From assembly GCF_002571385.2 (NCBI RefSeq), contig NW_019218252.1, forward strand, positions 4,181-68,180: a stretch of 64,000 nt of DNA, given 5' to 3'. The notes under the pieces were generated by a model, which saw only the letters and a program-made list of their open reading frames with translations, made no database searches and was not told the DNA's origin. Below, one piece after another: positions 19,555 through 47,611 of the stretch. Origin of the DNA: Stylophora pistillata. Lineage: Eukaryota. Made by a program: the position numbers and the translations under genes. Position 1 is the stretch's first letter. Each line of letters opens with the position of its first letter.

Positions 19555-22500
19555 GAGAGATATTCTCAAAACACCCGAAAATAGAATTCGATTTACATCA
19601 AAATGTTTTTTCTTTTGAACGCGGTAAATGAAACAAGGTTTTGTGGTGTAGCTATCGGCAGAAGTCCCCCACTTCAGTTTGTTACTCTGGGGAATGGGGT
19701 TTATATTATGTGAACTTTTATTCTTTTCTGAGCGGAATTGCAATTAAGCTATGCGGACTCTTGAAAGCCACGTGTAAATTATATCCTGACCACCTTTGAA
19801 GTTTGCGATTTGAATGTTGCACACCCGGTAGTTTCCAAGAATATTACGGAATCGAAGTGTAATCATGATAATGGAAGGTGCTTTGCGTAAAATCTCTTGA
19901 CGATCATTGAACTTAAGCGGTTTAAATTTAAATGTTCTGTGAGCCATAGGTTGCTTCACCTATCAGCGTAACATTCTTTAGAATGCTTGATGCTCTGCAC
20001 TTGTCTTCAAAATGGGTACTTCAAGTTAGATGGAATACTGCTTCCTGACATAATAGTTAAACGTCATGTCAGATACCTATTAAAGACTGATCTCTGTGCA
20101 ACAGTTTTTTATTCGGGAACACATTACTTTTGAAGACGTACAATATCCAAATATTTCCAAGACTGAGTCCAAGTCATGAACACCTCTGATTTCGCTGAGG
20201 GACCTCACTTTCCAACTTGTGTTATGAACAAAGTTGTCTGGAGCAACAGCTATTACATAGAGAGGACAAGCTTTGCCATCAGCTCCATAATCCTCCGTGG
20301 TCTCAGCATGCCTGTGACAATTCTTATGAATGCGTTGGTGATCGCGGCAGTGAAGACAACACCCAGATTGCAAACAAATTACAACGTTTTGTTGGCCTGT
20401 TTGGCAGTTACAGATTTGTTGGTGGGATTAATTGTTCAGCCAAGTTTCATTTTCATACAAATTAACGTTCTAAGAGGAATATCACTGGAGGAATTCTGCC
20501 AATACGAGAAAGAGCTTTCCTTTTTCGCTATCATTCCCATTCTCTCATCTTTGTATCTTCTCACCCTTATAAGTTTGGAGCGCTTTGTAGCAATAAAACA
20601 CACTTATCGATACGCCACTATTTGTACTACACGTCGCCTGATAACGGCAGTCGCGATCTCGTGGATCATAGCTATTTTCCCAAGCGTACTTCACTTTCTT
20701 GTCGAAAGTTTACAACCGATAGTCAGAGCTGTGCGCGCATTTTTTTGGATGGTCAACTTTATCGTGATTATATTCTGTCATATTTCTGTTTACTTTGTGT
20801 CCCGTCGACACGAGAGTCGGATCAGATCAGAGCAGGTTTCACAGCAAGCCGCCGCTGACTTTGCAAAGGAGCAAAAAGCTTTGAAGACAACCAGAATTAT
20901 TTTAATGACTTTACTTTTGTGTATTCTCTCTCCTTTCGTGTATAGTTTATTGTTACGGATCTTCTCCAACAGCAGTAGTTATGTTGTAACAGTGATACAT
21001 TTGAGTCATCCTCTCTTGTCAGCGTCTAGTGCGATTAATTCTGCTTGCAACCCGTTCATATACTGCTACAGAAATAGGACATTTCGGGACAAATGCGTTA
21101 GGTTCTTGAAATTTAAATTTGTAAATCAGGAAACTGAAGAGTAGTAACTCTACCTGTGTTTGTCGTGGAAACATCTTTAATTTATTGAACACTGTCCAAA
21201 TGTTTGTTTTTTTTTTTTTTTCATTCTTGAAGAGAGAAGGTTGTTTCCCTCAGTTGGGATGATGGTTTTGGAGGTTTCTTGAACGTTTAAAGTCCCAGTG
21301 AAAAATGTGAACGTATCGGAAAGTAATTCAAGGTTTTCGTAAAAATATTTCTTTTTTTAGTATCTTGACACGAAATAGCTATATTAATGATTTGGACACC
21401 CCAGCTGATTTGTGGAAATACGTGGACGACACATCTTGTTCCGAAATAGTTATTAAGGGCAGTGAGAGCAAACTCCAAGAAGCTGTGGATGACCTTTCCA
21501 GACAAGTGAGTATCGATGGGTTCCAACTGAATGAGGCCAAGTGCAAAGAACTACGAATTGGATTTTCTAACAGCAACCACGAGTTTGAACCCCTAGTCCT
21601 AAACGGCAAAACCCTTGAATTAGTCACCAGTGCCAAATTGCTAAGCGTGCCCATTAGCCACGATTTAAAGTGGAACATGCACACCTCTGAACTAAGTAGA
21701 AAATGCTCATCTCGTCTCTACTTTTTGAGACAACTCAAGACATCCGGAGTTGCACCAAGCGAACTTGTGCAATTCTATGTGACATATATTAGGCCCGTCT
21801 TGGAATACGCATGTCCTATATTCCACCGTTCTCTACCAAACTACATCAGCGAAGATTTGGAACGGATCCAAAGAAGGGCACTCAGAATTATCTATCCTGA
21901 CCTGTCATATAGTGTAGCACTAGAAACAGCTGGCCTACCGAAACTTTACGAGAGGAGAGAAAAGATTTCAACCAATGTATTTGACGAGATAGTCTGTAAC
22001 CCCATCCATAGACTCCACAGCGTCCTCCCCCAAAGGAAGAGATGTAGATACGCACTGAGGCGCAAAAGTGATTTCACTCTCCCCATATGCAAAACCGAAC
22101 GCTTGACGTTTTATTTTTAGCCATATTTATAAGATGTAGATGATTTTCGTTCTTTCTTAATGACGAAGTTGTAATATTTTATACTTCTTTCTTTACCATT
22201 TGCATTTGTAAATATTCCGTAATTCAGCCTATGGCTCCAAGGTGTTTATAATAAAGTATCTATCTATCTATAAAGATATCTTTGTGACCTGACGCGTAAA
22301 ACTGATATGTGTTCTTTTTGGCAGAGACAATCACCAACTATCGGCTCATGAATAAAGTAAAGAGAAACATCTGTTTTCCATTAATTGTGTAGAGATCTGG
22401 GAACCGACACGTTCAATTTTTTGCGACACCAAGTGATATCCTTAATGGAGTTCTCGATACTTAGCAATGTCATTTCCGCAGGTTTGAAAGGCTTCCGATT

Positions 22501-28512: not shown

Positions 28513-29749
28513 GGCTAAATTACGTCATTACTTGATATTCATACAAAGTAAATGCAGTTTTTTTCTCCTTTAAAATTTATTTTCCTCATTTTCACGCGTA
28601 GCCAAACGATAATTAGATGCTGATCCATTATCAAGACATGTGGGATGCACCAGACCAAGTTACCATAAATAGCCGCGTAAAACTTGCGATAAAAAGATTT
28701 GATCTAAAAACAGCACACTCCATGGAAAACGAGATTTTGTACCTTTGAAAGAATGTCTCCTTCACGCAATGTAGTGGACGTGTATATCAGTAAACTTGAT
28801 AACTTTTATGCTATTCCTGATGGAAACTTGCTTGCAAAGTGTGGCCTTCGGAGAGGAACCACACATAGGTAAACAGTTAACCGGTTTTAGACACTTGAAG
28901 ACAGTGTTCACCTTCACTTGTAAGCTATTAAAGAGTGGCTTGGCCAATTCAGATTTACTTAAATTAAAACACAGCTTGGTCTAAAAGCTGCGACAGAATT
29001 CCAAATTTTAGGGTCTTGGTAGAGGAGGGGACCTTAACAGGTCATACAATGTGACGCGCACCAATACATCAGAACCAATCAGAGAGTCCTATTTACGCAG
29101 GGAATTACTTTCATTTTCCCGCGATTCCAAGGCTTTGTTTCTACATTATACAGGGCACGCCCAAGAGCCATCATTGAAAAAATAAACATACCAAGAAATT
29201 CGTATATTGATTAACTCTCACTTGTCAGGTTTTACATGAGCAACCTGGAAGCAGCAACGAATAATTGATTGGAAAGAGTTGAACAGCTTCAGAATGTGTC
29301 TGAGCAATATTTCATCTATGTTCTTGGGTGTGGTTAAGTTGTTATCAAATGCACCTCTGTCTCGTATTTATCGGTGGTGGAACTTCAAATAATTTGAAGG
29401 GTCGTAAACAACCTCGCACCGCCCTTCTTTACAAGACAACCTGTGATCTGATTTAAAACTTTTGTTTTGAGCCACAATTTGCGTTTCCCTGATGTTTCAT
29501 TCATATTTTTTAACCTTGAATAAATAGAAACGTAAATATTTTGCAAAATGCCAAAATAAGGGTGTGTTTTCTTGATGAAAATAAATTGATCTTATCCTTG
29601 CTTTGACGGCGGGTTGCCTGGTTCAGGTAATTTACCTTAAATAAATAATGATTAAACACCCTTAGCCAATAGAAACTCCGCACACTTTAGATGAAATATA
29701 ACTCCCGGAAATATAATATCATTAGCAATCGAGAGCTAAGTTCTTCAAA

Positions 29750-32674
29750 ATGCTGTCCTTTCTAGTTGTTTTAGCTGTAATTAATTGGCCAGGCTGTCTT
29801 GGCTCCAATAATGTGTACAATCTCAACGAACGGGACTTCGAAGGTTACATCCGGGATAAGGACATAATGCTGGTTGATTTTTACGCGCCTTGGTGAGTTG
29901 TATTAAACGTGTTGACATTTAGAATCGTGCATTAAACGCTTGACTGCGTTCACAAGCTTACGATCTTTTTAACTGGTACTTCCATGTACATACAAAACAC
30001 CTTTGCTTTAAAGGGCGTTTTCGCTCTCCTTTTTCTTTGTCCATTCATATTCGAATAGTGTAATAAGGCAAATTAAGAGGTCAATTATGCGAAGGAGTTG
30101 TTAAACGTATTCTTGCTTTCATATTCTCCCCAAGTTCGATGGAAAATTATCCGTTCTTCTTAACCATAAGTTTGGAAATTATGAATTTTCGTCCGTTATT
30201 CTTACGGAGTACAAATAAACCTGTTTCTTATCCGATTTGATAAACATCCAACAGATAGCAGGTAGAGTCTTTCACCACATCCTTGTTTTGAACAGTTAAA
30301 GTGACATCTTGGACATCAATTGCAACGTTTTAGAAACGTAGAAAATTGACGACAATGGCCATAACGTGCAAAAGAATAGAACCCTATGAGACCCTACCCC
30401 AGAATTGTAGACTCCTTTACAAAAACGTTATAGCTATGGCTTCCAAATTAAAACATAATTGTTGTTTTAGTGACATGTGTTGTTGTCATTGCGGTCATTT
30501 TATCAATTATGTCAAGCTCTTTTTCAGTCAAGTGAATAGGTTTTTTTTTTTACATTTAGAAGGGAAACCATTGAGGTCAGAGCAGAATCATAGATGATTT
30601 TGACCTCAGCAAACATTGTCGACCTGTCTTCTTGATTTCTCTCAATCTGTGATCATGCACAAACTTGAAATGACCAGCCACCCGTTCGTTTCATGGTGAG
30701 AGAAAAGATAGATTCAGCTGACGAGTTTTACAACTTTGTCAGCTCACAATTCAGATCACTAGATGAGGCCAAGGAGCTACTTTGAAAAAGCGCTTTTGAG
30801 GATATAAGAGGATGTACGATGATAACAATTGTAGCCTCCCAAATGAATAATCGTATGGTCGGAATAACTTGGAATCAAGGATGTATGTACGCTACGAGAA
30901 TAGGTCAATGGCACGTGTTGGTTCAGGAGTCTGTGGATTTTTGTTTGTGATCTTTTATTTGGGAGGGGCTGAAGGGCTTCATTTCTCCTTTTTTCTCTCT
31001 CTGTCTAGACTACAGTAAACATCAATCAGATCTCTTGCTTTTTAGTAGCTTGATTAGACTGTTATCAATTTTGATTTTACCTTTAGGTGTACACATTGTA
31101 AAGAACTGAGCCCCGAGATTGATGCAGCCGCTGAACAACTCGCTTCCAAGAACATGTATGTGTTTGCAAAGGTTAGTTCACCGTGCTCAGTACGTATGGG
31201 GGAGGGAAGGGTGGTTGCGTGCAAATGTGGAAAAAAAAAAACGCGGCTATCACGTATCCTAGCTCGGCGTTAACTAGTTTGCCAGTTTACTTTTTTTCTA
31301 TTCAGTTATCTATTCATAGTTTTATTAGTCAATTTATTTGTTTTATTCATTTTTTTATTTAATCAAAAACCTACGTTTAACTCTCTTGACAGGTGGACTG
31401 TGTCAACGACGGCAAACAGTTGTGTCAGCGGTTTAACATACAGGGCTACCCCACGATTAAGTTGTTTAAGTATGGTCAGTACGTTGGAGATTATGTTGGA
31501 CAGCGAGACAGAGGTTAGTGAATCAGTAGAGCTGTTACTATTCACGGCGTCGATAGAGGCTGAGAGGAAACTTCTATCATCGAAACTTTGACGGTAGAAG
31601 TAGTGAGTATATCATAAATGATAACCCTTCGCATCTTTCTTTTTTTTTGCACAGGCTCACTGATGCAGTATGTCGATTCGGTGGCCTCAACGTTTTCGCA
31701 ACGTGCACCGCTGGTCAACAGTTTGGCTACACCTCTGGGTCAACCAATTAACTACAAGCCGCACGCTCAGTTATTAGCTCTGCACCATGCTCCCGCAATT
31801 CAAGCAGCAGCCGCGGCCGTTGCGCCGACTTTCACGAATCAGGCAAACATGCACGCGAAGAACCCGTCTCTTATGAACTCGTTTTACGGTGCGTCAGCGC
31901 ATGCGCAACCTCCTGCAAACCTGGCTGCTTTTCTTGGCAAGCAACAAGCAAGCCCAGACTCTTTGCAGTCAAAATTTGGCAGCCTGTCGTCGCTCGACAT
32001 TTATAGAGCTAAGCTTAAAATGATCGCAGCTTACAAGAACTATCAGCGTCGCCTTAAAGAGTACAGAATGAAACTTATGGCCAGTAAAGCAAACGTAAAT
32101 CCCAATCCTCAAGCCTTTCCAGGCGCGGTAACTCATCCGCCTCGTCCCGGTGTAAATGCATTCGCTCAGCCCCAGCCCTATCGCGGGTATTATCGACCCG
32201 AGGCCCTGGCAGCACAGAATGTGCAGATCAATCGCGCGTATCCCCAAGCTGGCTATGGAGTCAATACCATGGGTTATCCCAACCAGTTTGGCAGTCCTTA
32301 TGGTTATCAAGCTGTGGCCAGTAGTCCGTATTACAGAAGTAAAATGGGTCACGGGAAGGGTAAGAATCCTGGGAAGCTAAGAAGACCTGCGCCGCGTCCT
32401 GCTGCTCTCAGAAACCCCGCTTACAATCGTCAGCCTGGTAGAACTCGATTCAACAGCCAGGCAGCTTATTATTACAAACAACAACACCAGCGACAGCAAC
32501 AATTTCAACAAGCTTCCCGGCAGCAATATTACCGTCAGCCAAAGCAACAGAGGCAACAATTTAGACAGAAGCAGCCACAACGACAATATAAACAGGAGCC
32601 TCAGCAACTCCGGCAGTTTCAACAAGAGCCACAGCAACAACAGCGGTTTCTACAGGAGGCACAGCAACTCCAGC

Positions 32675-32705
<31 letters not shown>

Positions 32706-33424
32706 GTCGCAGGGCGATCAACAAACCTTCAAGCAGAATGAGGTATTTCCACTCTGCTATAATTTTGAAACTCAGTTCTAAGTTCAGGTGCCTCAAAATA
32801 CATACAGCAATGCAAAGAAAATACAAAGAAAAATAATGGAGGTCTCCACGGCTCTACATTTAACGCCACTGGAGCTCATAGAGATAAGTAACTAAACGTT
32901 TTAAGGACATTGTGCACATTATAGGTAAGCTGCAACTCGCACTGAGGGTTTTAACACTTTTTTCTTAACTCTTCAAATATAAAACTTTTCGATGCTCGAA
33001 AAAAACCGAATAATTTAATCCAAAGATTGCACTTCCCTTTACACTTCTCATTAATTTTCAGCAGCCCCAACCTGTGGAAAAGTTTCCTTTATCTCTCCCT
33101 GAACAGCCAAGCGATTCGCCATCAAAACCATCAAAACCAGACACGTCAGCTCTCAAGGATCTGAAAGCTGACATTGAGAGCGCCATCCAGGACGCTCTGA
33201 GGAATGCTGTAACAAAAAGTGCGCAGAAGACTAAGCCGAGTGAGGAGGTACACGTTGACGTTGAGAGGGCTAAGCCTCAGATCCCTGAAGCGTCTCCTGA
33301 ACAAGCGGGATCTGGATCTGGAGTCCAGACACAAAATATATCTCAGCAGGGTAGCGTTGGGGATGCTGTGAATGGTGAAGCCCATAGTGGTAGTGGGTCG
33401 GGTTTAAAACCCGAATCCCGGTGA
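29750..33424 (+). CDS. Signal-peptide, single-thioredoxin-domain (PDI a-like, WCTHC) protein with a long low-complexity Ala/Pro/Tyr/Gln-rich tail (~599 aa)
   Basis: Exons 29750-29892, 31087-31171, 31393-31513, 31655-32742, 33062-33424 (NAGNAG acceptor). MLSFLVVLAVINWPGCLG signal; LVDFYAPWCTHC, FAKVDC, IQGYPTIKLF, Y.G.R. Ends ...KPESR, no KDEL. Confidence 0.85.
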
Positions 33425-33990
33425 AGAACTAAATTAAGAAGCGAGAGACACCTGAGGTTATTCCAAATCTGGAACGAGAATGTTTTTAAACCAAAAATTG
33501 GTCTCTGAATTTTTGTAAAGAGTTCTCTCCACCTTGAGTTGATGAGTAACATTTCTTCTGGCATATCCAAGTGCAAAGTTCCTTCCAAATCAATCTTCAC
33601 GTGCGAATCGTTTGCACATGATAGTTTTCGTTTGCACATGACACTTTCCTTATTTGGTACATCAAAAAAATCAATGAAATATGTTAGAAAAAAGTTACAG
33701 TAATTTTATCTACGAGAAGACGATAGAAGTTCCCTCTTTTGATCTCTGATCAACACATTTCTCCTTCTTTTCTCTCGTATTGCGGAAGAAAGCAGAAATA
33801 GACTATAAAGAATCAAAACAGCCAATCTGAAAATTATAATTTCAATAAAAGTATATTTTGTAAAGTCGAAATAAAAATGAAAATAAAACTATTTTTTTAC
33901 TTATCAGTGTTTCTTGCAAATGCATTGGAAATTATTTAGCAGATATTTAACCAAGAATATTAATATAAATGATTACCGAAATTTCCCGAT

Positions 33991-34208
33991 TAACCCGTTC
34001 ACTGACACCCTAACATCAGTATGCATATTCTCCATACTGTTCTCTATACATTTCCTAACGAGCTGACGAGGAGAATTTATTTAACAATCACGAACATGTT
34101 TTAAGTTGGTGATCATTTAGTTTGTTCTCGTGACCTTAATGTTTAATACAGGGGTGAAATAGTTTGGAGAAATTGGATGCTGGTTAGTCTCAGGGTCGAA
34201 GGGGTTAC
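33991..34208. mobile_element. MITE, TTAACCC...GGGTTA-ended family (piggyBac-like ends)
   Basis: ttaacccgtt ... aggggtta terminal inverted similarity; ~215 bp, non-coding. Confidence 0.65.
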
Positions 34209-35120
34209 GAATAACGAATAGTGGTAGACAAACGTCATACACGAGGAGTTGCATTGCACACGTTCAGTTTTGGATTAGCACAAGAATGGCGATTGTCAAT
34301 GCCTAAAATCTTAAGTCTCTTTATTCAAACACTAAAGAACAAAGACGAACAAAGTCCTAGCAAATTAAGTCAATCAGGTGATGTATCAGGAATACAAATG
34401 GGGTCTTACTCTGCTGCGCTATTAATGTGTGTGGTGGTGTTTTTTTTTTCCGCGCCTTTCGTGGGGTGCACACGTTATGATTTTCCCGTGCTGGCATGGG
34501 CGACCTTCGCGTTTGTAGCACCGGTATTACAATGTCTCATGTTCGAATCGACTTTGAGATAGATTTATTTCATGCGTACCAGAATGGGAGAAGTTTACTC
34601 ACCCCTCACGACTCCTGCTATGTCGACACTAACTTAACTTATACTATCTTGAATATAAACAAATTCTACATTACCTGAGCAGGTTTTGTTTGGTAATCAA
34701 ATCTCCGACAGGTTGAAATTTAATTCGATAGTAAAGCAAAACTACACACCTGTTGTTGTCAATCAGCACGAGTTAGTTGACCAGAAACGATATATGCGAT
34801 AAAAACACAACATGACAATGAGTAGTGAAGTAGGCTTTTTTTTTAACCTGATTTTGAGATGGTAAATACAAAAATTCGCAGAACCAGATCTTTGGGCAAA
34901 TAACACCGATAATTGTGGGTGATGCGACATTGATCCATTACTTACACTTGGAATAATGTGATGCAATACAAAAACTACTCATTAATTGGCGAAGGGGGCA
35001 AGATCAACCAATCAGAATGCTCGAATATGACATATGAAGGGTAGAATGTGAAGTGCCTTAAATCAACACTTTCGATGATTTTCTCGTAGATCACGCCAGA
35101 ATCTCTAAAACAAGTGAACA

Positions 35121-36774
35121 ATGTTTACGGCTATACTTTCGATAGCCTTGTCCCTTGTAGGGACAAGTTTTTGCGCTCCATCTAATCCAGTCTTAAAGTT
35201 GACTGATAACGATTTTGACCATTTTTTGAAAGACAAAGAGACGATGTTGGTGGACTTTTACGCACCTTGGTAAGTTTTGGCTCTTTGGATTTTGGTCCGT
35301 GTACACAGCGCAACTGATAAACGAAGAAGTAGAAAACAACGAATTCGACGAGCCAGTTTTTAAAAAGGTACAATCAGTGGTTGTTTGATGACTACACGGC
35401 TGACGCGTGAAGCGTCCGATTTTAAGACAAACAGGTGAAATAGAACCGTATTGTTTATCCGTTTACGGTTGAGTTGTACGGCAGGTTAGGCATTTAAGTT
35501 TTGTCACAGAGTTTTCGTCTGGCTTATAGTTTATTTTTTTCTTTGATAATGGTTAAACTTAGTTGTCATTGGTGTTTCCTGATACATATTTTGATAAATT
35601 CATTGATTTAAAATTTTATTGCACTCATCCATTTAACACATCTCCATTTAACTTCTTTAGAAGAAAATCGAATAAATTTCGTATTCTGTCGGCAACAGAT
35701 TCACTCTTTGACGCCGTGTTCTTCGCCACTATTAATTAAGATATGATTTAAACCAAATGAGCCTGTATCTTATGCCAGGAGTTATCAGAGCTATTACTCT
35801 GTCCCCGGCCATCCTTACTGCCATTCTTACTACCAAGTGTAATGGTACCACAACAGAACCTGACAAGAAACCAGTGCAAACAAGTGACAATATAATCCTT
35901 CCCCTCCCCCCTCAGGTGCAGCGACTGTGCCAGATTAAAGCCCGAGTTTGACAGCGCCGCAAAGGATTTTGCGCTGAAGGGGAAATTTGTTTTCGCCAAG
36001 GTTTGTATTGAAACTTCAGTTTGACCTATAAAAAAATCTAGTGCCAGACCCGAACAGCCATCAATATGGGCATAGGACTGGGTGGAGACTCGTTCCCAAA
36101 CCCCTCAGCGCTCCATCCCTGGAACTATTGCATTCTCTAGAACAATTACTTTTCCATGTTATCAAAAGCCCTTTCAACATTATTGCATAAGAGACATCGT
36201 GAAACAAGTACCACAGTAGCCTGACATGGACGCTATAAACTTCTTCGGGCCTTTTAAGTCCTAAAGAGCTGATTACTGTTCTGAACAGATTGACTGCTTC
36301 GGCGATGGAAGGAGTATCTGTGAAAACAGGTTCAATGTGCACAGCTGGCCTCAATTGAAAGTTTTCCGTCGCGGGCAATATGCTGGAGAATACAGCGGAA
36401 ATCAAGACAAAGGTACGTCCGCAGAGCGTGTAAGTAAACGAATTTCGCGGTTACTAAATTAGTCAGCAGTGGTTCTGATCATTGTATTATAGTCAGGAAC
36501 TATAGATCATACTTGTATATGATATTTGCAAAAGATCTCAGCGTCTCTTTGGTTAAATCCTCTTTTTTTTTTTTCAGCTTCTATTGAAAGATTTATGGAC
36601 AGCCTTGTTAAACAGAAAGTCCCGGATAATATTGGTCAGGACCAACCCCAGAAAAACCCGTCGGCAATCAAAGAAAACCCATATGGCCCCTGGTACCAAA
36701 AGGGATGGACTTACTGGGCTATGAGTCCTGGAAATGTCCCTTATCAGAACCCACCTGGCTGGAAAAGAGGATAA
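35121..36774 (+). CDS. Signal-peptide, single-thioredoxin-domain protein paralog (WCSDC) with a short Trp/Tyr/Pro/Gly-rich tail (184 aa)
   Basis: Exons 35121-35269, 35916-36000, 36289-36412, 36578-36774, with the same intron positions and phases as the upstream paralog. MFTAILSIALSLVGTSFC signal; LVDFYAPWCSDC, FAKIDC, VHSWPQLKVF. Ends PPGWKRG. Confidence 0.87.
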
Positions 36775-36962
36775 AGTTGAGAAAATCCTCAAAAGAATTC
36801 GAAGTTAAAATTTATCAGAGATCCGCAGCAATTAAGAGCCTAATATTCAATGGCTACAGAAGTTAAAACTTTAAAAAGAGGCCAGTTTCCGTGCTCAAGC
36901 CATATTATTTCAACCATTTTGTACGCAGTCACTGAACTCGTTAAAATGTTATAATTTGGATA

Positions 36963-37040
36963 TATCAACAAAGTTGAAATGGTAAATTGGCCACCGTAAC
37001 GATTACAAAAGCTGACGTTTCGAGCGTTAGCTCTTCGTCG
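36963..37040 (-). mobile_element. Truncated Penelope-like terminal repeat with a hammerhead ribozyme remnant
   Basis: The minus strand reads gcGACGA-a-GAGC-taac-GCTC-GAAAC-GTC-agc. Stem II and GAAA are intact; the CUGANGA core has lost its CU. Confidence 0.6.
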
Positions 37041-38968
37041 CCAAATGTTGTTGAGTGAAGATATTCCGTTACTCTTACCCCTGTTAATTCACTTTCGAAT
37101 TACTTATTTCAACCCTAGCGTTACCTTAAAGTTGAAGTGTTTCATAAAAAGTTGACGGCGTTTCCTTCAATGGAACTTTTTTAAAAACTTTCTAAAGAGT
37201 GTGTTAACCTTGTTTCATTGCTTTACATATTTTCCCCTTCGTTAGTGCCAGACGGGAATTCTGTATAGGATTTGAAATGACCCCTCATTTTCAAGGGTAC
37301 GAAAAGACATATTGCAGGTTGATACAAAAACAAACTAATGAAAAATAGTCTTTTCTGTTTAAATCTACTATAAACTTAAATAAAGCAACATAAAAACAAG
37401 TAGGAGAATGGAGCTCTGTGGGAAAATTTAGTGTTGGTTTAGTGAAAAGAAAATTTGCAGAATGGAGATTAAGGAGGGAGTGCAAAGAACGTATTTAGAC
37501 AAGAATACAGGTGAAGCATTTTAAATAAGTGTCTGAACGATTTTCAAATTTGCGAGATATACTAAACCCTCACAACTGATAAAGATAGATCCCAAGAAGA
37601 GCACATTTGACTAAACCAAATTGTATTCTTCATTTTTAAAGCGGAGCAATCCGAATTACGTAGGTATCAAGAGAGAGCGAATGTTCGATGTGATAGGTTC
37701 TCTGAGTGCTAGCATCGACAAGCTTGTCATAGACCGAGAGCTGAGTGTGAATCCAGAGATGGGCGAACTGTGCATCGTTTACGGCGTTGGGGTGTACAAC
37801 CGCGCACAGAGTTTTAACTCAGTTCAACCTGCAATTAAGAAAAGCAGAGATTTTGCATGTAGCATATAATTGCTTCACGATGATTCGTAAAGGCGGAACA
37901 TACGGTGATTATTTCCCCCGTTGGAATTTCCCTAAGACAGAAAATGGCAGAAAATATCACTGCCCTAATTTACGGCTGGTTTAAAAACGAAACTTTACAG
38001 CCAAGAGCAAAAACTAAGCCATCAGGAAACAAAGCGCGAAATCTGAACAAACATTTCAATACACAAAGTTGTAAGTGAAAAATTGTGTTTTATCTGGTTT
38101 GAGCTAACAAGACTACGAAACAGCCCTTGACTAGTTGAGTGGAAGTTTCACCTCCAGTTCAAATACGATGATTTTATAAAAGTTGTATTTTCAATACCCA
38201 AATGGGTGCATTTCGTAATTAGCAGTAAAAACGTGTAGTATTCCGGTAACATAGCCCTTTAGTTCTAAATTTAACTTACTCTAAGCAAATTGAATTTATT
38301 TGGCCTCTGATTACATGACGAAAAATAAGGCAAATTGACTAGACGCATAGTCAACACTACACTCTTTCAAAAATAAAATATTAAAAACAAGCAAACAAAA
38401 AAGGTAATCTGTAAAAGTTTGTTGTGTTCGCAGGTTCAGCCTGAAATGGAAAAATATGACAACATTGAAAATTTATTTTAAATTTTTTAGATAACAATGG
38501 AAGGAATAAAAAATAGGACCAGTGCGATTCCCAAACTAAACTTTGAAGTCAGCTTGGGAAAAATACGTCAAATTCGTGATTATTTTCGTTTTTTTTTTTT
38601 TTAGATCTATTTGACAGTTTTTGCAAGCAATTCTTCTATTCTCATCTTTACTATCTAACGTGGTTCGGTTCTTCCCCCCCCTCGACATCCGTTTTTCGGT
38701 TTTTCAAAGCACAGAGGAGCAGTTTCTAGTTTTCCTTACTCACTCGTCCGAATAAGTGCCACCAACCATTTCATACCCGTTTAGATCATAACCCTTTATA
38801 ATTTTTCGAATTTGAACGATTTTTATGCCAGTTCTCGTTTCCCTGTTAGACTAGGTGACCTCTCTTAATATAAGTTGGTGGGAATTGAGCAACCGATTTA
38901 GATTTATTAACGTCCCGAAAATAGAAAATTTAGAACAAATGTTTTAGTAATGGCCCTACCAAATTTCA

Positions 38969-41900
38969 TTAGACATCCAAGACCGTCACTGGTGATAATA
39001 TGACCATTACTACCCCACTTGGGTTAACAATGGCATGGAAGCTTCCTGTGAACGTTCCAAGATCCTTGTGTTCAAACAGGTCACGTGCCTCAGCTTTTTC
39101 GGCACTTAACCCAACCTGAAGAAAAAAGAACCATAATTATATGCATTACACAATATGTTCTGTTCTTCAATAATCTTAAAGGTTTGGCAAATATTTTCTT
39201 AAGCATCAATAATATGATAACTCTATGTTACTAACCATTTTAAAACTTGCTTCTATAGTTTCAGGGGTAGACTCCGAGTGTGAAAATAACACCACAGCAA
39301 CTGATCCATTAGACAAGGGCCGCGCCCAGATCTCTCTATTTCCTTCCTGAAATTGCAAACAATAACATGGTACATCATAAAATAAACTTAAATTCAAAAG
39401 GTTGCTCCAGAGAGTGGAATTATACCAACATGTAGTAACTGATAACTACAACTCTGAAGAACAGAATATGTGCATTCCTCACCAGCAGAACTCTCCTCCC
39501 CATTCTCCCCAGTTTGTCCTGATTGACAGCTATCACATCACTGAAACATACACCAGAATGGGTTTCTTTCAGTAACTGCTTGACTGACCGATTGATGACT
39601 GGCCCTGTTTAGGGATTGGAAAAATCTATCTACACACATCAAACATAAAAATCTTACCTCTAAAGAAAAGATTTCCAAATTTTGGCCAAATTTTAGCTGA
39701 AATTTTATCCCCTGATCACAAAACTCTTAGTTTGCATATAATAAATGATTTACGTATGATGTGCGATCCTCGCAGTAGATAGCGCTATTTATGCAATAGC
39801 AAAAATCAGACCTGAAAAAAATCAGGCCTGTACAGGACTCGAACCACTGACCTCTGCGATACTAGGTCAGTGGTTCGAGTCCCGTACAGGCCTGATTTTT
39901 TTCAGGTCTGATTTTCGCTATTGCATAAATAGCGCTATCTACTGCGAGGATCGCACATCATACGTATCTAATACCGCAGTTCAAAATGTATGAACTTCAT
40001 ATATTCATTGCATCTAATAAATGATTTATTCTGAATGCAGTGTTAATTAAGAGGTCTCTATTTTATACCTGTTTTGAAGGATTTGTTTTGCCCATGGTGC
40101 AATGTTACGAAGATCAGTGGACATAATAAAGGGGCTGGAAAAAAGTCAAATCACATTGATTCAGTTCATGACCACGCTTGCCAGCCTTGAGATCATTTGC
40201 TTATAAGATATAAATGCAGTAGGATAATTTCTGCTAACTCAAACTTGGACCCCTACTAGTTGGGGAGTTCAAGTTAGTGGGGTTCCACTGTATTTGAGAC
40301 AAAGTGTCAAAGAAGATATGTCAATCTCTGTCCCTGTGTAAGAACTATCAAAGTCACTGTTTGCTTTATTGTACAACTAAATCTGTTGGTCATCTATGTC
40401 AAAGATACTTACAGATGCCATGACAGACCACAGAGCAAACTGTGCCTTTGACTGTTCAAAACTTAAACTGAAATCTCCAATAATGAGCTGAAAGACAATA
40501 ACATACAAATAAATTCAGATTTTTGATAAACCTAGTGGGAATCAAATATCAATACCAAGCTCACTTTACAAATCAAGCTCAACTACACGTGGAATCTGCA
40601 TAACCTTGAAAGCTCTACACATAGTTCTACTTTTTCTTTTTTATCCTAAGAGTTCATTGTATGCTACTCCTTATACACTAGAAGATGAGCAAGAAATCAG
40701 TATTTAAATGTCTCCCTTGTGTGGCTGTGACAATTAATCCACAAACTCTTCAAAATCATTTTTGTTTTCTGTAGTTTAGTTGTGGTAACTAAGCCATTCT
40801 AATCTATTTACCATATCAGGGTCATTCCAGTTTCCCGGCCCTGCAACTGGGATCATTTCATCTTGATGGTCACCATACCATTTAACTATTGATGTAACAC
40901 TTTGCCAAGAATCCTGCAGAAGAAAAAGTAAAACAAAATTTATTCAAGGTCATGTGCTTTGTTTATTGACATAAATAAAGTACCTGTATGTCATCGTAGT
41001 TCCTCCACAAATTGCAGTTTTCAGCTATCCATGTATAGTTGGGCTGTAAAATTAACACTTAAGTCATTAAACAGCCAATAATATTGGAAAGTAGCAACTG
41101 TACAATAACTTAGCAGTTGATATTAGTAATAACTGTCCACTGTTTCCACCTCAAATTGAAACAATTACAAACTTAACCCACACATCATACCAGGTCAGGG
41201 AATCAAAACCCAAGCCATGGGAGGCCAGCCCTCTTGACACTGCGTTATCTCCGCTCCCCTGGTAATAAGGTCACTATGTCATCTCACACAATTTCGCCTT
41301 CAGCATAGAAGTCAACATTATAGGCCAAGAAAAATATGTTAACAATGAAGTCTATCCTCACGGTTTTCTTTGCACTTTGATAGGCTGGCCAGCTGCAGGA
41401 AAATACTATTGGTCTGCCTGTGTTGTTAAGGGCTTTGGTGACCATTGGGTAACCTGTATCCATTTTGTCGGGGTCACTATAACAACCATCCAGCTTTAGG
41501 TAGTCAACTCCCCAGCCAGCAAATGTCTGAAAAGGAGTCAGTGAAACAATTATGGGAAATATTGATGCAAAGGTCACTTAAAGGGTGAACAGATAAAAGT
41601 AAGAATGTCTCTCTCTGGCACAGTTTTAAAGCTACATATAAAATAACTTATACATAGCAACAAACAACATGACTATTAACCTACATCCATGTCTTGTTGA
41701 ATGTGATCAATGGTTCCTGGGTATCCTGCACAGGTTTTTGTTCCATAATCTTAAGAAATGATAATGCACAGAACTATGAACAAAACAATTTAGTAATATG
41801 TCTTTAAATAATGAGCTAAATTATAAACATATTTTGATTGGTGCTTATTAAATACTCATGATCTGTTGGAAGACAGACACCTCTACAAGATCACCATTAA

Positions 41901-44489
41901 CTACATTTTGCTTCAGTTTTTATCAAATCAAACAGAATAGATCACAGAAGACATCTGGATGAGGTGAGAATATCAATGACACAGTCAGCTGCACCTCGTG
42001 TGCCACTTTTCTGTTTTTACCACATTTTGACATCATCTGTGATTTATTACTGTACAGATGTACAGCAACAATTAATCTTAATGTTAATCTTTACAAGTGA
42101 ACAAAACTATAATGATATTTTAACATACATGTAAGGTCTTCTAGTGCTATACCTGCATATATTCCCAACTTTAATCCCTTAGAATGAATCTGAAATTAAA
42201 ATGGTACGAGTAATCTTAGAGAAAAATAGACATTTCTTTTAGGAAGAAACTCTACCAAAAAATACTTTTAAAAGGATTAAAGTATTGTAACAAACTTACG
42301 TAGTCAGCCAGAGCTTTCATTCCACTCGGAAATCTGGCAGGATCAGGCTGGAGTTGACCGTCAGCTGTTCGGTTATGAGACATCCAACAATCCTGCAAAT
42401 TTAAGTGACTTTTGTGAATTTTTTGACAAGTATTAGCAGGGCAGGTACAGAAAATCCCAAATTAGAGAATAAAAAATGAGTAACAGGGAAGGCCTATCTA
42501 ATGTCTCCACTCTTAATTCACTTGCAGGTAACTATTAAACATGACAGTTAAGAAAACCAGAAAATTGAACTAAACAAATTTGACAAATGCCCAACTAGAA
42601 TCTGAAAGGAAGAGGTACCAATCCAGAGAAGAGATTGACAGATAACTTCTCACTATAATATCTATATATTATCCAGCAAACAGGTAATGAGAATACTCAA
42701 ACTTATCAGGTAGAAGTTGTTACCTTGATCTTACACCAAATTCTCCTAACTAATTTACGAGGAAATGTGTAGCAGCTAAAGAGGAGAATTTACAATCAGA
42801 TCTTAAGAATTGAAAGGTTAAACAGCAATCCACCTGAGTGTGAAGATCCTTTCTTTGCTTTAAATCTCACCACAACAAGATCACATCTCTTTACCTTCCT
42901 GAGTTTATTCCCTACCACAAAGTTAATCCATGCATTTGAATTATTACTACAAGCAGTTGACATCTCTCAGGGATAACACCTCCTCTCCATAGATCCAAAC
43001 TCACAAAATAATTGGTCCAAACAGTCCTCAGTTATCCTCAGATCTCTACAATTTTCAGAGTAAACCAAACAGCAAATGACGATGAATTTAAATAAACAAT
43101 TATCAAACCTTACATCAATAGACACATATTCATAGCCAACATCCTTAAAACCATCTTCAGCCATACGAGATGCCATATCCATGAATAATTTTTCACTGAA
43201 ACAGTTAAAGAAAGAAACATTTTAAACTGCACCAAACTTCTCCATATTACAGATCAGTGTGCAGACTTGCCGATTGCATAAGCCTCCTATCAACCCAAAG
43301 AACATTACAAATTTTGTTTTCCATTCTAATTTCTTATTCTAATTTATTCCATGACTTGCACCAAGTTACTGATTTAAAGAACATTAGTCAAGAGGTTTTA
43401 TACATCACTGATTTGAGAAAAAGGACAGAATTTCACATGTTTCCACCTGCAATATTAGCCACCCATTACACCATCAGCAGCCACTTATAGAAAAAGTTAT
43501 AAAAGCCTCTGCTTAAAGGAAGTCAAATGTGGACAAACAAAGCAAACACTCTCACCCCCTGCTTTGTTTATAACTGCTGTAAATAAACATAAATCAATAA
43601 ATTAAGCAGTTACCCAATGCAGTTGTCAGGGTCATTTTTGCAGTCTGTGTTACAACGGAATCTCTCCCAGTCCATCCATCCCACTATAAAAGGAAAGAAA
43701 CGCTGCTGTAATAAACAAGGGTGTGGGTCCATTATAGCAATTGTCAAAAGCAACCTAGCTACCCCTCCCTCCCCCTAACTCCACTAATGTAGGACATCTC
43801 CTTGGAAAATATTGTCTTCATCCTTGATTAATCTCTTATCCTGTCCATATGGTGGAAAACATCACCCTGTCCCAAGAAAACTCCAGGAGAACTTATTCAC
43901 TTTTTTGAGCTTCATCTTGTCTGTCCTCACCTATTAAGGTAAGCACTTCTCCTGCAAAGAGTGACTGCTTTGAACAAGTTCTCTACAACTGAATTTTAAT
44001 CATTTTGCTTGTAAATGCTGGAAAGAGATTCTTCTTAAAAAAAGCAGTTGTCCTAGAGGCAACCCATTGATTTCTTTATCCAAGAACTGTATTTAGTATG
44101 GGGCTGTGCGGAAATCTTTCCCAGCTTTCAATTGACTTCTAAATGAAGTTTAACGAACTAAATTAGCTAAAAAAAAGAAAAAAAACCAAATCAACTTTGG
44201 GGGAAAGAAACCAGTTAGTCATAGTCCGATAGAAGAAGACGTAAGATTTTCTTCTAGAACACTTGACAAGCTGATTACAAGTCAGTGATCAGCTGTGTAT
44301 CATGTGATATATATAACCGCAACTGATCTGCGATATTCTTCCCGAAAGTTGCCCAAAACTAATATATATTAGCAACTTACTTGGTGGTGTTAAGGCTAGA
44401 CCATTGTCAAGAGACTTTACAAATAAGTTTTCCTGCCATGATGCCATAAAAACAATTAGTAAGAGCACGCAAGACAGTCCGGGCGCCAT
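38969..44489 (-). CDS. NAGA: Alpha-N-acetylgalactosaminidase (GH27), paralog 1 (14 exons, ~412 aa); apparent +1 frameshift in exon 11
   Basis: Exons 44489-44381, 43683-43614, 43195-43114, 42392-42300, 42189-42153, 41749-41685, 41526-41362, 41043-40984, 40913-40812, 40487-40413, 40134-40069, 39540-39483, 39346-39236, 39115-38969. [31 protein letters not shown] (nucleophile), FSCSWPAY (NAGA-type S/A rather than GLA E/L), WRNYDDI, WNDPDM. Confidence 0.9.
39753..40014. mobile_element. Palindromic tRNA-like insertion with a 14-bp target-site duplication
   Basis: Arms 39751-39853 and 39864-39966 (2 mismatches). taataaatgattta at 39739-39752 and 40015-40028. Confidence 0.88.
42640..42822. mobile_element. 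MITE, TTAA-ended family
   Basis: Similar to 10095-10285 and 53917-54128; ends aaaggttaa. Confidence 0.65.
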
Positions 44490-44926
44490 TGTGCATAGAA
44501 ACTGAGAGAGGCGATATACCAGGTCCTCTCATACTGAAAAGTCACGCAATCAGAATAACGTAACATCAACCATTGGTGACAAAATAAATTCAACTGATGT
44601 AACATATTTTCCATGATCAGATCATCCTTTAGTTAAAACAAAAATTAGAACGCGGCAAAAGCGTAGAGTGGAACCTTTTCGTCGCTTTTCACCTTTCGTT
44701 TCTGACTCTAAAAATATATCATTCTCGTAAGATGAGCCAAAGATCACGTGAGTAAAAACCAACTGTAATGAAAACGTTCTAGATGTTTTTAAGGTTCCAT
44801 TTAATTTTTTACATCACAGACTTTTATAATTGTGCCTATCTAGCGGTTGTTCGGAAACTTTAATATTTATATTCTTTATCTTTTTCCATTTATCATAGAT
44901 TACGTTTTCCGAGATTCAATTTGAAA

Positions 44927-45357
44927 GGAGGGGGCATTGGGATTTACGGTTTTGCGGTTTTGGCCAATTTTTTAGATCAGTTTTGCGGTATTTGTGCCAA
45001 AAAAAACCTCGGTTTTTCGGTTTTGTTGTTCATTGCATTTTGTAGGTCTTCTATTTACAGCATTTGGTTTTCGGTTTTCGTCAAAAATTGTGACGGGTAC
45101 TCGGATTTGGTATCCGATGTGCTTTTTCGGTTTTTCATATTGAGTTTCTCTTCGATCTTAACAGCAGCAGGAGCCTCTTGGCAGCAGTTATACGCCGCGC
45201 CTCTGCTGATCTCGAATAGCCGCGAAACCTATGCTGCTCCACTTGTAACCACAGTAGCAGTTGGATTAGGATTTTGACAACTGAGATGAGCAAATTTATC
45301 AGTTTAGACGGTTTTGCATGCGGTTTTTGGTTTTGATCGAATTTTTTGCGGTTTTGC
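44927..45357. repeat. Non-autonomous DNA-transposon-like fragment rich in cggtttt submotifs
   Basis: Terminal gaggggcattgggatttacggttttgcgg; a related inverted end lies at ~48570-48605. Confidence 0.5.
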
Positions 45358-46669
45358 CTGAAAGTTTCTCTTGAACATTAGGGATATCGTAATTGTTACA
45401 TTTGCCATAGTTGTCATTTTACTTAATTTAGTAAGACTTCAAGTGTAGCCAACATACTCTAGGTATAAGCTATAACAATCGCTTGTGATTCAGTTATCGT
45501 GACAAAAATGTATGGACAATCTGGAAAGCTACGGGGACAACACCGTTTCAGAGGTACTTTAAGGCATTTGGACACGCCCAGTGATAATCTCTTGTAAATT
45601 TAAGACCTGCACGTTTTGTTTTGATTTTTTGTTTTTATTGCTATGAATGACAAAGAAGTATTGCTCTGTCCCTCTAGCTGTGTGAGAAGATTACCCAGCT
45701 TGGCTGGGAGTTTATCCACAGCTCATAACAACGAAGATCGCCGGTAACTCTTTTCCGGGCCTTGTCGAGTGCAGCCGTTTGCGCTTTGCGCGCGGATTCG
45801 CTCTTTTCAGCTCGCTATACGGTCGTAGCTAAGAAAGAAGGTCTGTTGATAACTTGCATTACTTAAGTATTGACTTAGAAAGCTCAGCTGAATTCCAGAA
45901 CGTCTGTTCGGTAACTCGGCAAGTGATTTGAAGTTACGCGAGCGAACGAGATGTGGGTGAATATACAGTGACTAGACACGCGCTGTGATGATGGCTATTT
46001 CGCTAAATGAACAATGTAAAAGGCTGCTGTTTGATTTTTACCTTTTTTTTATTTCGCTAGCTTTGATATCGTTACCTTTCTATGGAACTACAGCTTCCAG
46101 TAATGGTAATCAATAACTGAATGGACTTCACTCATAAACACAAGTATACTTTACTATTTCTATTTTCTTGGCTTGTCCATCTAGGTATCTTGGTTACGGA
46201 ATCACAAAATAGGTAAAAACAGTCTAGCTATCACATTCTTAAAATCTAAGTTTTATATTCTTACTTTATATTAAAATAGTTTTGGAGCAATTTTAGCTTT
46301 TAGATATAAACACTCAAAATAAAAATTAAAACTAATTACAAATCTCAACCTAGAAAATACTTTAAACAACGTTTACAGGGCGTTTAACTTAGCAATTCTA
46401 ACTTACAGGGAACTGAATTTAACCTCAATTTCTACGAAGGAAATCATCCTCACCAGAGACGACCTTATAATCGTTAGAAAAGTTACATGTTTCTGCGGTG
46501 ATTAAAAGGCTGTTAAACAAGAAAAGGAGCAAATGTGATTATATGTCTCTGGTAAGAACTGCAAAAATGCTGCGTAAACAAAAAAAATTAAAAACAAAAT
46601 CGATAGGTATTGTAAGTAAAGGATTCTAATCAAATTATAAGTAAAGGCTAATAGAAGAGAAATTTGAAT

Positions 46670-46796
46670 CAATCTCAGAAACTGAGCAACTACGCACCTA
46701 CCCCTTCCCTAACGACCAACAATCAACAAATTATGGTTAATTATTCGGTTAGGGAAGGGGTGGGTGGGCAATTACTTAAGATACTGTCACTGATCC
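46670..46796. mobile_element. MITE with long imperfect TIRs
   Basis: actgagcaactacgcacctaccccttccctaac ... gttagggaaggggtgggtgggcaattacttaag; same family as 2741-2920. Confidence 0.75.
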
Positions 46797-46962
46797 TGAA
46801 AATACGGTAAATTTTGTCATCCAATGTTTATAGTCGTAAAATCAAGGCACCTCAAACGCAACTATAGCATATTGAAATTCAGTTCTTTAAGTCTCCGTAA
46901 ATCTTCCGTGTACATCAAAATATTAAAATCAGTTTATAATCTCTTGTGTACCTGTAATCATC

Positions 46963-47178
46963 TAGCATGTGTACAGCCGCCCCATCCCCTCGAAAAAATC
47001 GGGGAGGGAGCGAAAAAATCGGGGAGAGATCGAAAAAATCGGGGAGGGAGCGAAAAAATCGGGGAGGGAGCGAAAAAATCGGGGAGAGATCGAAAAAATC
47101 GGGGAGAGATCGAAAAAATCGGGGAGGGAGCTCCCTCCCCGATTTCTTCGAGGGGGTTGGGCGGCTGTACACAGGCTA
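46963..47178. mobile_element. Palindromic MITE (TAG...CTA) with a 9-bp TSD and an internal 7x20-bp tandem expansion
   Basis: TSD gtaatcatc at 46954-46962 and 47179-47187. Units cgaaaaaatcggggag(ggag/agat) span 46991-47130. Confidence 0.9.
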
Positions 47179-47611
47179 GTAATCATCCACATATTCTATT
47201 TACCAATTATACAGAACTGACCAATCCGATAGCAAAAAACAAGCACTGAAATCCATCTTAGGTTTTTGTCATCTGCGCTTGATGTGGTCGTAGCCAGTGA
47301 TTGACACAATTTATTGTGACTAGTACGCAGCTGCAGAAGTCACTTTGCTGTCGTCTGGGTTCACGAACGTAAATAACGATCAAAACTGATCAAAATCCAT
47401 TAAGCGGTCTTTCGGAACAATTCGTTTCAAGAAGAATTAACGATTGTTTCAGTTGGAAACACTGTTCGTTTTCTTTAGACTGATGCGATAGTTTTGGTTT
47501 AGAGACCTCGATAATAAACGCAACTTGTTCGCGCGTGTTTTGCTGCCCTTTACGCGTGTCGCGCGGACAGGTCGTAGAATGATCATTGGTTGGTTCTCTA
47601 TATCTACGTTT

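What the first reader, a model, noticed from the sequence alone, without database searches (positions are those of the whole stretch)
29750..36774. Tandem pair of predicted secreted single-domain thioredoxins with non-canonical CXXC and unrelated tails
Seen in sequence: both have a signal peptide, one PDI a-type domain, identical intron phases and an extra Cys pair (VDC...LC / IDC...IC). Neither has b domains, a TM helix or KDEL. Active sites are CTHC and CSDC rather than CGHC. Established: the XX dipeptide tunes redox potential, and cnidarian nematocyst walls mature by disulfide reshuffling of minicollagens. Inference: a cnidarian-specific post-ER redox pair whose tails anchor them to a secreted structure (cnidocyst, mucus or skeletal matrix). 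I recognise no standard PDI-family member with this architecture.
Basis: partly seen in the sequence, partly recalled or inferred. Interest (0 to 1): 0.7.

Follow-up and report, generated by a model that had tools for sequence, protein, structure and literature searches.

The report
Coral pair of single-domain disulfide isomerases
Two neighbouring, separately transcribed coral genes each encode a stripped-down, one-domain relative of protein disulfide isomerase with no ER-retention tag; they likely act in stinging cells, where they would rearrange the disulfide bonds that harden the stinging capsule, a step whose catalyst has been proposed but not characterised.

Summary
Observation confirmed. 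Two real genes, g1 (599 aa, CTHC) and g2 (184 aa, CSDC). Six of seven introns are seen spliced in RNA, the transcripts are separate, no further domains or KDEL appear, and g2 is identical to a Stylophora pistillata record. Both form one clade of single PDI a-domains in 4 of 4 trees, in no sampled PDI class. The tandem is kept across stony corals, and the CxDC branch reaches the octocoral Xenia. Corrections: the extra Cys pair is ordinary (241 of 525 outgroup domains), and g1 is nearly canonical (keeps His, Tyr-cisPro, Arg; first X varies). Only g2 is truly odd: Asp for His, Trp before cis-Pro and loss of the re-oxidation Arg, in 14 of 14 members. g1's tail is modular, with two conserved Ser-Gly clusters resembling glycosaminoglycan sites. 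Best reading (0.42): cnidocyte disulfide-reshuffling catalysts, probably the coral counterparts of Nematostella's consecutive cnidocyte PDI genes NVE15732/NVE15733. Orthology, cell type, secretion and activity are untested. Verdict: new variant of a known kind.

The parts
29750..29892 (+). g1 exon 1: predicted signal peptide (about residues 1-18) and start of the a-type domain, ending in the Trp codon before the CXXC (phase 2)
   Evidence: Pfam PF00085; hydropathy; this intron not among the joints shown
31087..31171 (+). g1 exon 2: active site CTHC (31088-31099)
   Evidence: joint to exon 3 in RNA
31393..31513 (+). g1 exon 3: extra Cys pair, Tyr-cisPro loop, conserved Arg (equivalent of PDI R120)
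31655..32742 (+). g1 exon 4: end of domain; basic tail with a conserved predicted amphipathic helix (about 31981-32079), a conserved Pro/Tyr/Arg block, and a poorly conserved Gln-rich stretch (32446-32742)
   Evidence: helix only at low confidence
33062..33424 (+). g1 exon 5: conserved acidic predicted helix (33140-33211), two Ser-Gly-Ser-Gly clusters after acidic residues (33311-33322, 33386-33403), stop; no KDEL-like end
33425..33890 (+). g1 3' UTR; RNA contigs end at 33822, AATAAA at 33844, 33870, 33882
34959..35036 (+). g2 proximal promoter: TGATGCAAT (-162), CCAAT (-113), CATATG (-90), same spacing within 1 base in 3 of 3 other coral loci holding upstream DNA
35121..35269 (+). g2 exon 1 (coding part): predicted signal peptide and start of the a-type domain
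35916..36000 (+). g2 exon 2: active site CSDC (35917-35928)
36289..36412 (+). g2 exon 3: extra Cys pair (DCFG), Trp-cisPro loop, Gln in place of the conserved Arg
36578..36774 (+). g2 exon 4: last helix and 53-residue Pro/Gly/Trp/Tyr-rich tail ending GWKRG

Best explanation
g1 and g2 are two separately transcribed paralogues, each a single PDI a-type domain behind a predicted signal peptide with no KDEL, forming their own clade, and they likely work in developing cnidocytes, where they would leave the ER with capsule cargo and catalyse the disulfide switch of minicollagen and NOWA cysteine-rich domains. Shown: gene structure, separate transcripts, clade, conservation, active-site residues. Inferred step 1 (about 0.6): they are the coral counterparts of Nematostella NVE15732/NVE15733, hence cnidocyte-specific. 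Inferred step 2 (about 0.65 given step 1): lacking retrieval signals, they act in the TGN or capsule vesicle. Inferred step 3: labour is divided. g1 keeps the PDI oxidase kit (CxHC, Tyr-cisPro, Arg) and would form or shuffle disulfides while held in the matrix by its basic, possibly glycosaminoglycan-bearing tail. g2 (CxDC, Trp-cisPro, no Arg) would be slower to re-oxidise and more reducing, supplying the partial reduction that starts intermolecular reshuffling. Likely origin: partial duplication of the first exons of an ERp57-like gene (not resolved).
For: Two transcripts: stranded depth 0-0.5 over 34166-35026, g1 contigs end at 33822, 5 molecules end at 35114; g2 has its own promoter conserved in 4 of 4 coral sequences. 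One domain each: Pfam on P0291, P0021, P0020; AlphaFold of g2 gives one thioredoxin domain (10-residue block pLDDT 82-88 over residues 21-130) and a low-confidence tail that matches PDI a-domains. Clade support 100/99, 95/98, 99/98, 99/98. Purifying selection on g2: pN 0.071 with pS 0.75 over 108 codons against L001. CxDC branch, 14 of 14 rows: Asp, Trp-Pro, no Arg; outgroup 4, 0 and 391 Arg of 499; g1 branch, 6 of 6 rows: His, Tyr-Pro, Arg; the buried acid/Lys pair is kept in g1 and g2. The Arg is implicated in re-oxidation (PMC4030966 passage); the cisPro-minus-1 residue tunes potential as much as the XX dipeptide (PMC2665069 passages). Nematostella NVE15732 (47-fold, first row of the table), NVE15733 (22-fold, best hit PDIA4) and NVE26200 are cnidocyte-specific by RNA-seq and in situ (PMC6161364); coral g2 records are likewise auto-named PDIA4-like. 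[quoted passage not shown] The CxDC branch is in a soft coral (Xenia), so it is not tied to an aragonite skeleton. Two SGSG clusters with an acidic residue 2-4 positions upstream in 6 of 6 g1 proteins, shuffle p 0.0004 or less in the 4 tested, fit the acidic Ser-Gly attachment motif in disordered regions (PMC10424144).
Against: No Nematostella or Hydra sequence was retrieved, so orthology with NVE15732/3 rests on consecutive IDs and automatic names; the neighbours NVE15730/31/34 are absent from the one table seen. No expression data by cell type for these coral genes were seen. A PDI without KDEL can still be ER-resident (AtPDI11 in PMC4030966; TMX1 in PMC3500226; retention by ERp44 is recalled). 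g2's conserved TGATGCAAT resembles an ATF4/C-EBP stress element (recalled), which fits an ER-stress role as well; g1 lacks the exact motif. g1 orthologues were found only in stony corals (a word-limited search), which leaves a skeleton-linked role open for g1. The direction of g2's redox shift is extrapolated from other scaffolds; no passage seen covers Asp or Trp at these places. The SGSG motif was picked after seeing it and may be a plain linker. In a Stylophora haemolytic-fraction table the only PDI named is PDIA6 (PMC5762905).
Confidence: 0.42

Rival explanations
1. Cell-type-specific folding helpers that stay in the ER or ERGIC by KDEL-independent retention and fold cysteine-rich toxins and capsule proteins, working like cone-snail csPDI or AGR2, without entering the capsule.
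For: Sunagar et al. themselves propose folding of toxins and structural proteins for the cnidocyte PDIs; csPDI is a precedent for venom-cell PDI paralogues (PMC6275033); KDEL-less ER PDIs exist; g1 keeps canonical ER-oxidase residues.
Against: No family member examined ends in a KDEL-like motif and the C-termini vary freely; there are no b/b' domains for binding unfolded clients; g1's Ser-Gly clusters would be elongated only in the Golgi, if used (recalled).
Confidence: 0.25
2. Secreted redox modifiers of another extracellular matrix: mucus from gland cells or, for g1, the skeletal organic matrix from calicoblasts.
For: Signal peptide, no retention signal, and a basic disordered g1 tail (residues 129-479: 45 K+R against 9 D+E) able to bind polyanions; g1 seen only in stony corals; AGR2 is a precedent for mucin folding.
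Against: The CxDC branch occurs in Xenia and in a deeper unnamed clade, and the g1/g2 split predates that in the trees, so the pair is older than the skeleton; no paper in the 15 listed for the skeletal-matrix search points to them (listing only).
Confidence: 0.2
3. Broadly expressed stress-inducible ER redox buffers under ATF4/C-EBP control, with no structural role.
For: Exact TGATGCAAT at -161/-162 in 4 of 4 coral g2 promoters (motif identity recalled).
Against: No ERSE or UPRE within 300 bases of either start; the motif alone is not rarer than chance in the window (2 seen, 0.89 expected); bZIP stress factors were recruited into nematogenesis, so the motif does not discriminate; lineage-specific tails are unexplained.
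Confidence: 0.09
4. One fused two-domain protein (as in four public gene models), or degenerate non-functional fragments of an ERp57-like gene.
For: Fused 789-809 aa models in Montipora capricornis, M. foliosa, Acropora muricata and one Oculina annotation.
Against: In-frame stop and polyA signals after g1, no read depth between the genes, no g1-g2 joint among 15 of 49 joints shown; fused models carry an internal signal peptide; stand-alone 182-aa transcript proteins sit in the Montipora cluster; strong purifying selection.
Confidence: 0.04

Closest known systems
ERp57/PDIA3 and ERp72/PDIA4 a-domains (also ERp46/TXNDC5)
   Same: Fold and sequence: single-domain PDB scores 70.4 (PDIA4), 70.2 (PDIA3), 69.1 (TXNDC5) bits; extra Cys pair; g1 keeps His, Tyr-Pro, Arg. 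The DC-x3-G[KR]-x2-C loop is in 13 of 15 family rows and 9 of 525 outgroup domains, one being the ERp57 orthologue P0257. The three intron positions match those I recall for human PDIA3 (recalled, not tested).
   Different: One domain only, no b/b'/a', no retention signal, long lineage-specific tails, CxDC site in g2; separate clade whose sister is unresolved.
Nematostella cnidocyte PDI-like genes NVE15732, NVE15733, NVE26200 (PMC6161364)
   Same: Divergent PDI-like annotation (best hits Humicola PDI and PDIA4), two with consecutive IDs like this tandem.
   Different: Their sequences were not seen; the passages read give expression only, no architecture, motif, localisation or activity. Orthology untested.
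Single-domain human PDI members ERp18/TXNDC12, AGR2, AGR3, TMX1-4
   Same: Signal peptide plus one thioredoxin domain with a non-CGHC motif; AGR2 is cell-type-specific and serves a secreted polymer.
   Different: ERp18/AGR carry EDEL/KTEL/QSEL and TMX a TM helix; none of these chains is among the 50 PDB sequence hits at E 1e-10.
Cone-snail conotoxin-specific PDI (csPDI, PMC6275033)
   Same: Lineage-specific PDI duplicate serving a venom-producing cell.
   Different: csPDI keeps two CGHC active sites and is discussed as an ER folding enzyme; this family is single-domain and KDEL-less.

Membership tests
PDI family in the broad sense (secretory-pathway thioredoxin-fold proteins) | Thioredoxin a-type domain with CXXC and cis-Pro loop | tested here: met
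   PF00085 E 2e-23 for P0291 and 6e-28 for the g1 orthologue P0021; model and Foldseek; residues
PDI family in the broad sense (secretory-pathway thioredoxin-fold proteins) | N-terminal signal peptide | tested here: met
   Hydropathy only: 11-residue maxima 3.1 and 2.4, and 1.65-3.25 in 9 relatives; no SignalP available
PDI family in the broad sense (secretory-pathway thioredoxin-fold proteins) | ER residence and thiol-disulfide exchange activity | not testable with these tools
   No KDEL-like end or TM helix; needs localisation and assays
ERp57/PDIA3, ERp72/PDIA4, PDI/P4HB orthologues | a-b-b'-a' (or a0-a-b-b'-a') architecture with C-terminal retention signal | tested here: not met
   One domain, transcripts end without further exons
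ERp57/PDIA3, ERp72/PDIA4, PDI/P4HB orthologues | a-domain nests in the orthologue's clade | tested here: inconclusive
   Not nested in 4 of 4 trees; AU test does not reject family+ERp57 a (p 0.27) and rejects family plus one ERp72-architecture domain (0.007) or two ERp46-architecture domains (0.008); one ERp57 row only
ERp46/TXNDC5 and ERdj5/DNAJC10 | Three or more a-domains (plus J domain in ERdj5) and KDEL | tested here: not met
   separate clades
TMX1-4 | Transmembrane helix after the domain | tested here: not met
   Best 19-residue hydropathy after residue 30 is 1.22 or less in 11 of 11 proteins; no TMX row was in the trees
AGR family (ERp18, AGR2, AGR3) | AGR-type domain with EDEL/KTEL/QSEL-type end | tested here: not met
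   No such end; Thioredoxin_7 score 25.9, under its cut-off 27 and far under PF00085 82.6; no AGR row in the trees
Nematostella cnidocyte PDIs NVE15732/NVE15733 | Orthology by sequence and synteny (MSH3-like upstream, alpha-galactosidase downstream) | not testable with these tools
   No Nematostella sequence retrieved; neighbouring IDs absent from the table seen
Chondroitin/heparan sulfate proteoglycan core proteins (g1) | Ser-Gly after acidic residues in a disordered region | tested here: met
   Two clusters in 6 of 6 g1 proteins; motif as in PMC10424144
Chondroitin/heparan sulfate proteoglycan core proteins (g1) | Glycosaminoglycan chain actually attached | not testable with these tools
   Needs chondroitinase shift or glycoproteomics

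The most novel reading that the evidence does not exclude
This clade is the long-postulated nematocyst disulfide isomerase system, older than the anthozoan-medusozoan split: a post-ER two-enzyme module in which a reducing CxDC domain triggers, and a matrix-tethered CxHC domain on a chondroitin-bearing core protein completes, the switch from intra- to intermolecular disulfides that hardens the capsule wall.
Probability: 0.15. Interest if true: 0.82.

Novelty: new variant of a known kind. Interest (0 to 1): 0.55.

Why it matters
How soluble minicollagens are switched into a 150-bar-resistant disulfide polymer is an open question; the catalyst has been proposed in print but, in the papers seen, not characterised. 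This gives two named, small, expressible candidates with a sharp, testable active-site signature (CxDC, Trp-cisPro, no Arg) and a diagnostic sequence motif for finding the family in any cnidarian. It also flags four fused public gene models as probable annotation errors. If they prove to be ER helpers or mucus proteins, the result is a modest lineage-specific PDI offshoot.

Tried and rejected
No whole genome is held, so no paralogue census. Accession search for six orthologue records found 0 papers. ESM Atlas gave only generic thioredoxin clusters for g2 and no usable hit for g1's middle tail; no Pfam family for any tail. AlphaFold of the g1 orthologue was unusable (mean pLDDT 31.7). A two-copy complex of the basic tail helix gave no answer (score 0.19, mark 0.32); not used as evidence either way. 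A POU4-like motif (recalled) upstream of g2 is not conserved in L010 or L018, rejected. My recollection that Hydra nb031 is a disulfide isomerase was not supported: 0 occurrences of 'isomerase' in PMC2687796. Look-ups for named relatives of the deeper CxDC clade gave none, so its being medusozoan is inferred only from tree position. The primary Hydra papers cited for a nematocyst isomerase and chondroitin (PMC3323026, PMC1963347, PMC2919125) are not held. The supplementary tables of the Stylophora single-cell atlas (PMC8162421) were not seen; they bear directly on cell type. Earlier findings of the scan: 3 look-ups, nothing. Extra Cys pair and CTHC as marks of novelty: rejected.
Full report
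Observation. The region holds two intact genes on the + strand. g1 has five coding exons (599 aa) and g2 four (184 aa); all introns are GT-AG and the first three fall at the same residues with phases 2, 0, 1. The domains are 54/123 identical (E 2e-41) and tblastn finds no other thioredoxin exon in the window. Each domain exon scores against PF00085. Upstream lies an MSH3-like gene (MutS_I and MutS_V) and downstream, on the opposite strand, an alpha-galactosidase.

Transcripts. Four runs were laid on 29000-37600. Joints match g1 introns 2-4 (raw reads 2+2, 9+3, 7+6 in X21+X24) and g2 introns 1-3 (26+9, 62+9, 71+11). g1 intron 1 is not among the 15 of 49 joints shown; it is supported by collinear full-length orthologues. 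Depth in the raw-read runs falls to 0-0.5 over 34166-35026, g1's last-exon contigs end at 33822 ahead of three AATAAA, and 5 molecules end at 35114, just before g2's ATG. g2's proximal promoter (TGATGCAAT, CCAAT, CATATG) is kept at the same spacing in the window and in 3 of 3 other coral loci with upstream DNA. So these are two genes, and the fused 789-809 aa public models in Montipora (2), Acropora muricata and Oculina, which carry an internal signal peptide, are probably errors.

Range and synteny. g2 is identical over 184 of 184 residues to P0291, a Stylophora pistillata record, so the window is most likely from that species. Named g2 orthologues: Pocillopora (3 species), Orbicella, Oculina, Desmophyllum, Acropora, Montipora; named g1 orthologues: Oculina, Acropora, Montipora. 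The pair is adjacent in Oculina (ACROYT_G000491/492), in the fused models, and g1's C-terminus lies 2.2 kb upstream of g2 in L018 (E 1e-4); alpha-galactosidase follows g2 in L001, L012 and L016. A profile search of 1.84 billion representatives (best 150 listed) added three single-domain CSDC proteins, one from the octocoral Xenia, and a metagenome scan (18 loci from 136 stretches) added five more with CGDC (4) or CIDC (1), each a signal peptide, one domain and an unrelated tail. These have no named relatives. No named member outside Anthozoa was found, but the searches were capped and dominated by multi-domain PDIs, so 'cnidarian-specific' is likely, not shown.

Phylogeny. In four trees of about 108 columns (126, 57, 33, 63 rows) g1, g2 and the CxDC proteins are one side of a branch with support 100/99, 95/98, 99/98, 99/98. 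g1 is sister to all CxDC proteins; within these, six unnamed proteins (100/98) fall outside Xenia plus stony corals, the place medusozoans would take (inference). The duplication is therefore at least as old as Anthozoa if the trees are right. The parent PDI is unresolved. Outgroups were ERdj5 (named), one ERp57 orthologue (P0257, E 2e-147 to PDIA3) and unnamed proteins labelled by architecture; P5, ERp44, TMX and AGR rows were not included. An ERp57 origin is favoured only weakly: AU p 0.27 for family plus ERp57 a against 0.007 and 0.008 for the two alternatives tried, a shared DC-x3-G[KR]-x2-C loop (13 of 15 family rows; 9 of 525 outgroup domains), and intron positions that match my recollection of human PDIA3 (recalled, untested).

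Active sites. The extra Cys pair is common (241 of 525 outgroup domains; human ERp46, ERp57, ERdj5). g1's motif is CTHC here but CSHC, CHHC or CPHC in orthologues, and 6 of 6 g1 rows keep His, Tyr-cisPro and the Arg equivalent to PDI R120. g2's branch differs at three linked places in 14 of 14 rows: Asp for His (4 of 499 outgroup CXXC domains), Trp before the cis-Pro (0 of 499) and Gln, Glu or Leu for the Arg (Arg in 391 of 499). g2 is under strong purifying selection (pN 0.071, pS 0.75 saturated) and models as a normal a-domain. The Arg is implicated in active-site re-oxidation (PMC4030966, passages), and the cisPro-minus-1 residue and the XX dipeptide both tune potential (PMC2665069, passages). 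That g2 is more reducing and a poor oxidase is my inference; no passage seen covers these exact residues.

Tails. g1's tail is not just low complexity. Across four genera it keeps a basic predicted helix (20 of 25 identical at 226-250), a Pro/Tyr/Arg block (21 of 25 at 276-300), an acidic predicted helix (18 of 25 at 501-525) and two SGSG clusters with an acidic residue 2-4 places upstream, in 6 of 6 proteins; shuffles of the last 125 residues reached two clusters at p 0.0004 or less in the 4 tested, though the motif was chosen after seeing it. This fits the acidic Ser-Gly glycosaminoglycan motif in disordered regions (PMC10424144, passages); a non-sulfated chondroitin is reported in nematocysts (title only, in the reference list of PMC4863159). 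g2's tail is a 53-residue Pro/Gly/aromatic segment conserved among stony corals. Neither has a TM helix or KDEL-like end.

Literature. Sunagar et al. 2018 (PMC6161364; section 9 whole, passages, supplement rows) found three PDI-like genes specific to Nematostella cnidocytes by RNA-seq and in situ: NVE15732 (47-fold), NVE15733 (22-fold, best hit PDIA4) and NVE26200 (9-fold). Two have consecutive IDs, and coral g2 records are auto-named PDIA4-like. That is suggestive only; their sequences were not seen. Tursch et al. [quoted passage not shown] The Stylophora atlas (PMC8162421, passages) does not mention disulfide isomerases in its main text; its tables were not seen. PMC5762905 (passages) names only PDIA6 in a Stylophora haemolytic fraction. 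PMC6275033 and PMC3500226 (passages) supply the csPDI and human single-domain comparisons. Searches (listings) showed no paper describing this architecture or the CSDC motif; subscription journals are largely not covered.

Mechanism and odds. Shown: two conserved, expressed, single-domain, KDEL-less PDI offshoots with contrasting active sites. Inferred: cnidocyte expression (about 0.6), action beyond the ER (about 0.65 given that), g2 as reducing trigger and g1 as tethered oxidase or isomerase. Overall 0.42, against ER-retained cell-type-specific helper 0.25, mucus or skeletal matrix 0.2, general stress buffer 0.09, fusion or relic 0.04.

Verdict. A new variant of a known kind: it works like a PDI a-domain but is not an orthologue of any sampled PDI class by architecture. 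Interest 0.55, because it offers cheap, direct tests of an open question in nematocyst assembly, while the link to cnidocytes is still indirect and may already be half-known as expression data.

Noticed in passing
window 34959-35036; L010, L013, L018: g2 promoter with TGATGCAAT (resembles an ATF4/C-EBP element, recalled), CCAAT and CATATG at fixed spacing in 4 of 4 coral sequences; further conserved non-coding blocks near 34680-34760.
   Followed up: partly
proteins P0147 and P0260: Unnamed 3-4 domain PDI-like proteins with a different CXXC in nearly every domain (CGFC, CIHC, CPYC, CCDC; CPYC, CTDC, CFYC) and no KDEL-like end; they form their own clade (100/98). Possibly a second lineage-specific PDI offshoot.
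   Followed up: partly
L003, L004, L005, L007: Tails of the deeper CGDC proteins share a small Cys motif (SCAKC ... C-x7-C) with no Pfam match; L002 and L006 tails end in Lys-rich stretches.
   Followed up: no
public records P0001, P0284, P0316, P0327: Fused g1+g2 gene models in four coral annotations, with an internal signal peptide; probably annotation errors.
   Followed up: yes
window 34005-34058 and 36951-37040: Two short, very high-copy expressed repeats, one after g1's 3' end and one in g2's 3' UTR (thousands of loose-ended reads).
   Followed up: no
window 29000-29553 and 37010-37600: Transcribed sequence attributed to the MSH3-like 3' UTR runs to within about 200 bases of g1's ATG, and RNA contigs continue beyond g2's stop towards the opposite-strand alpha-galactosidase; L001 joins g2 and alpha-galactosidase in one contig.
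   Followed up: partly
window 38969-51865: At least two alpha-galactosidase-like copies downstream (matches near 38985-40488 and 47971-50418).
   Followed up: no
window 57690-59759: A 690-codon open frame with strong purine skew and no Pfam match.
   Followed up: no
window 545-8203 (-) and 20167-21141 (+): Open frames that read like BTB-Kelch genes (by eye) and a single-exon rhodopsin-family GPCR (PF00001), the latter apparently inside the MSH3-like gene's span.
   Followed up: no
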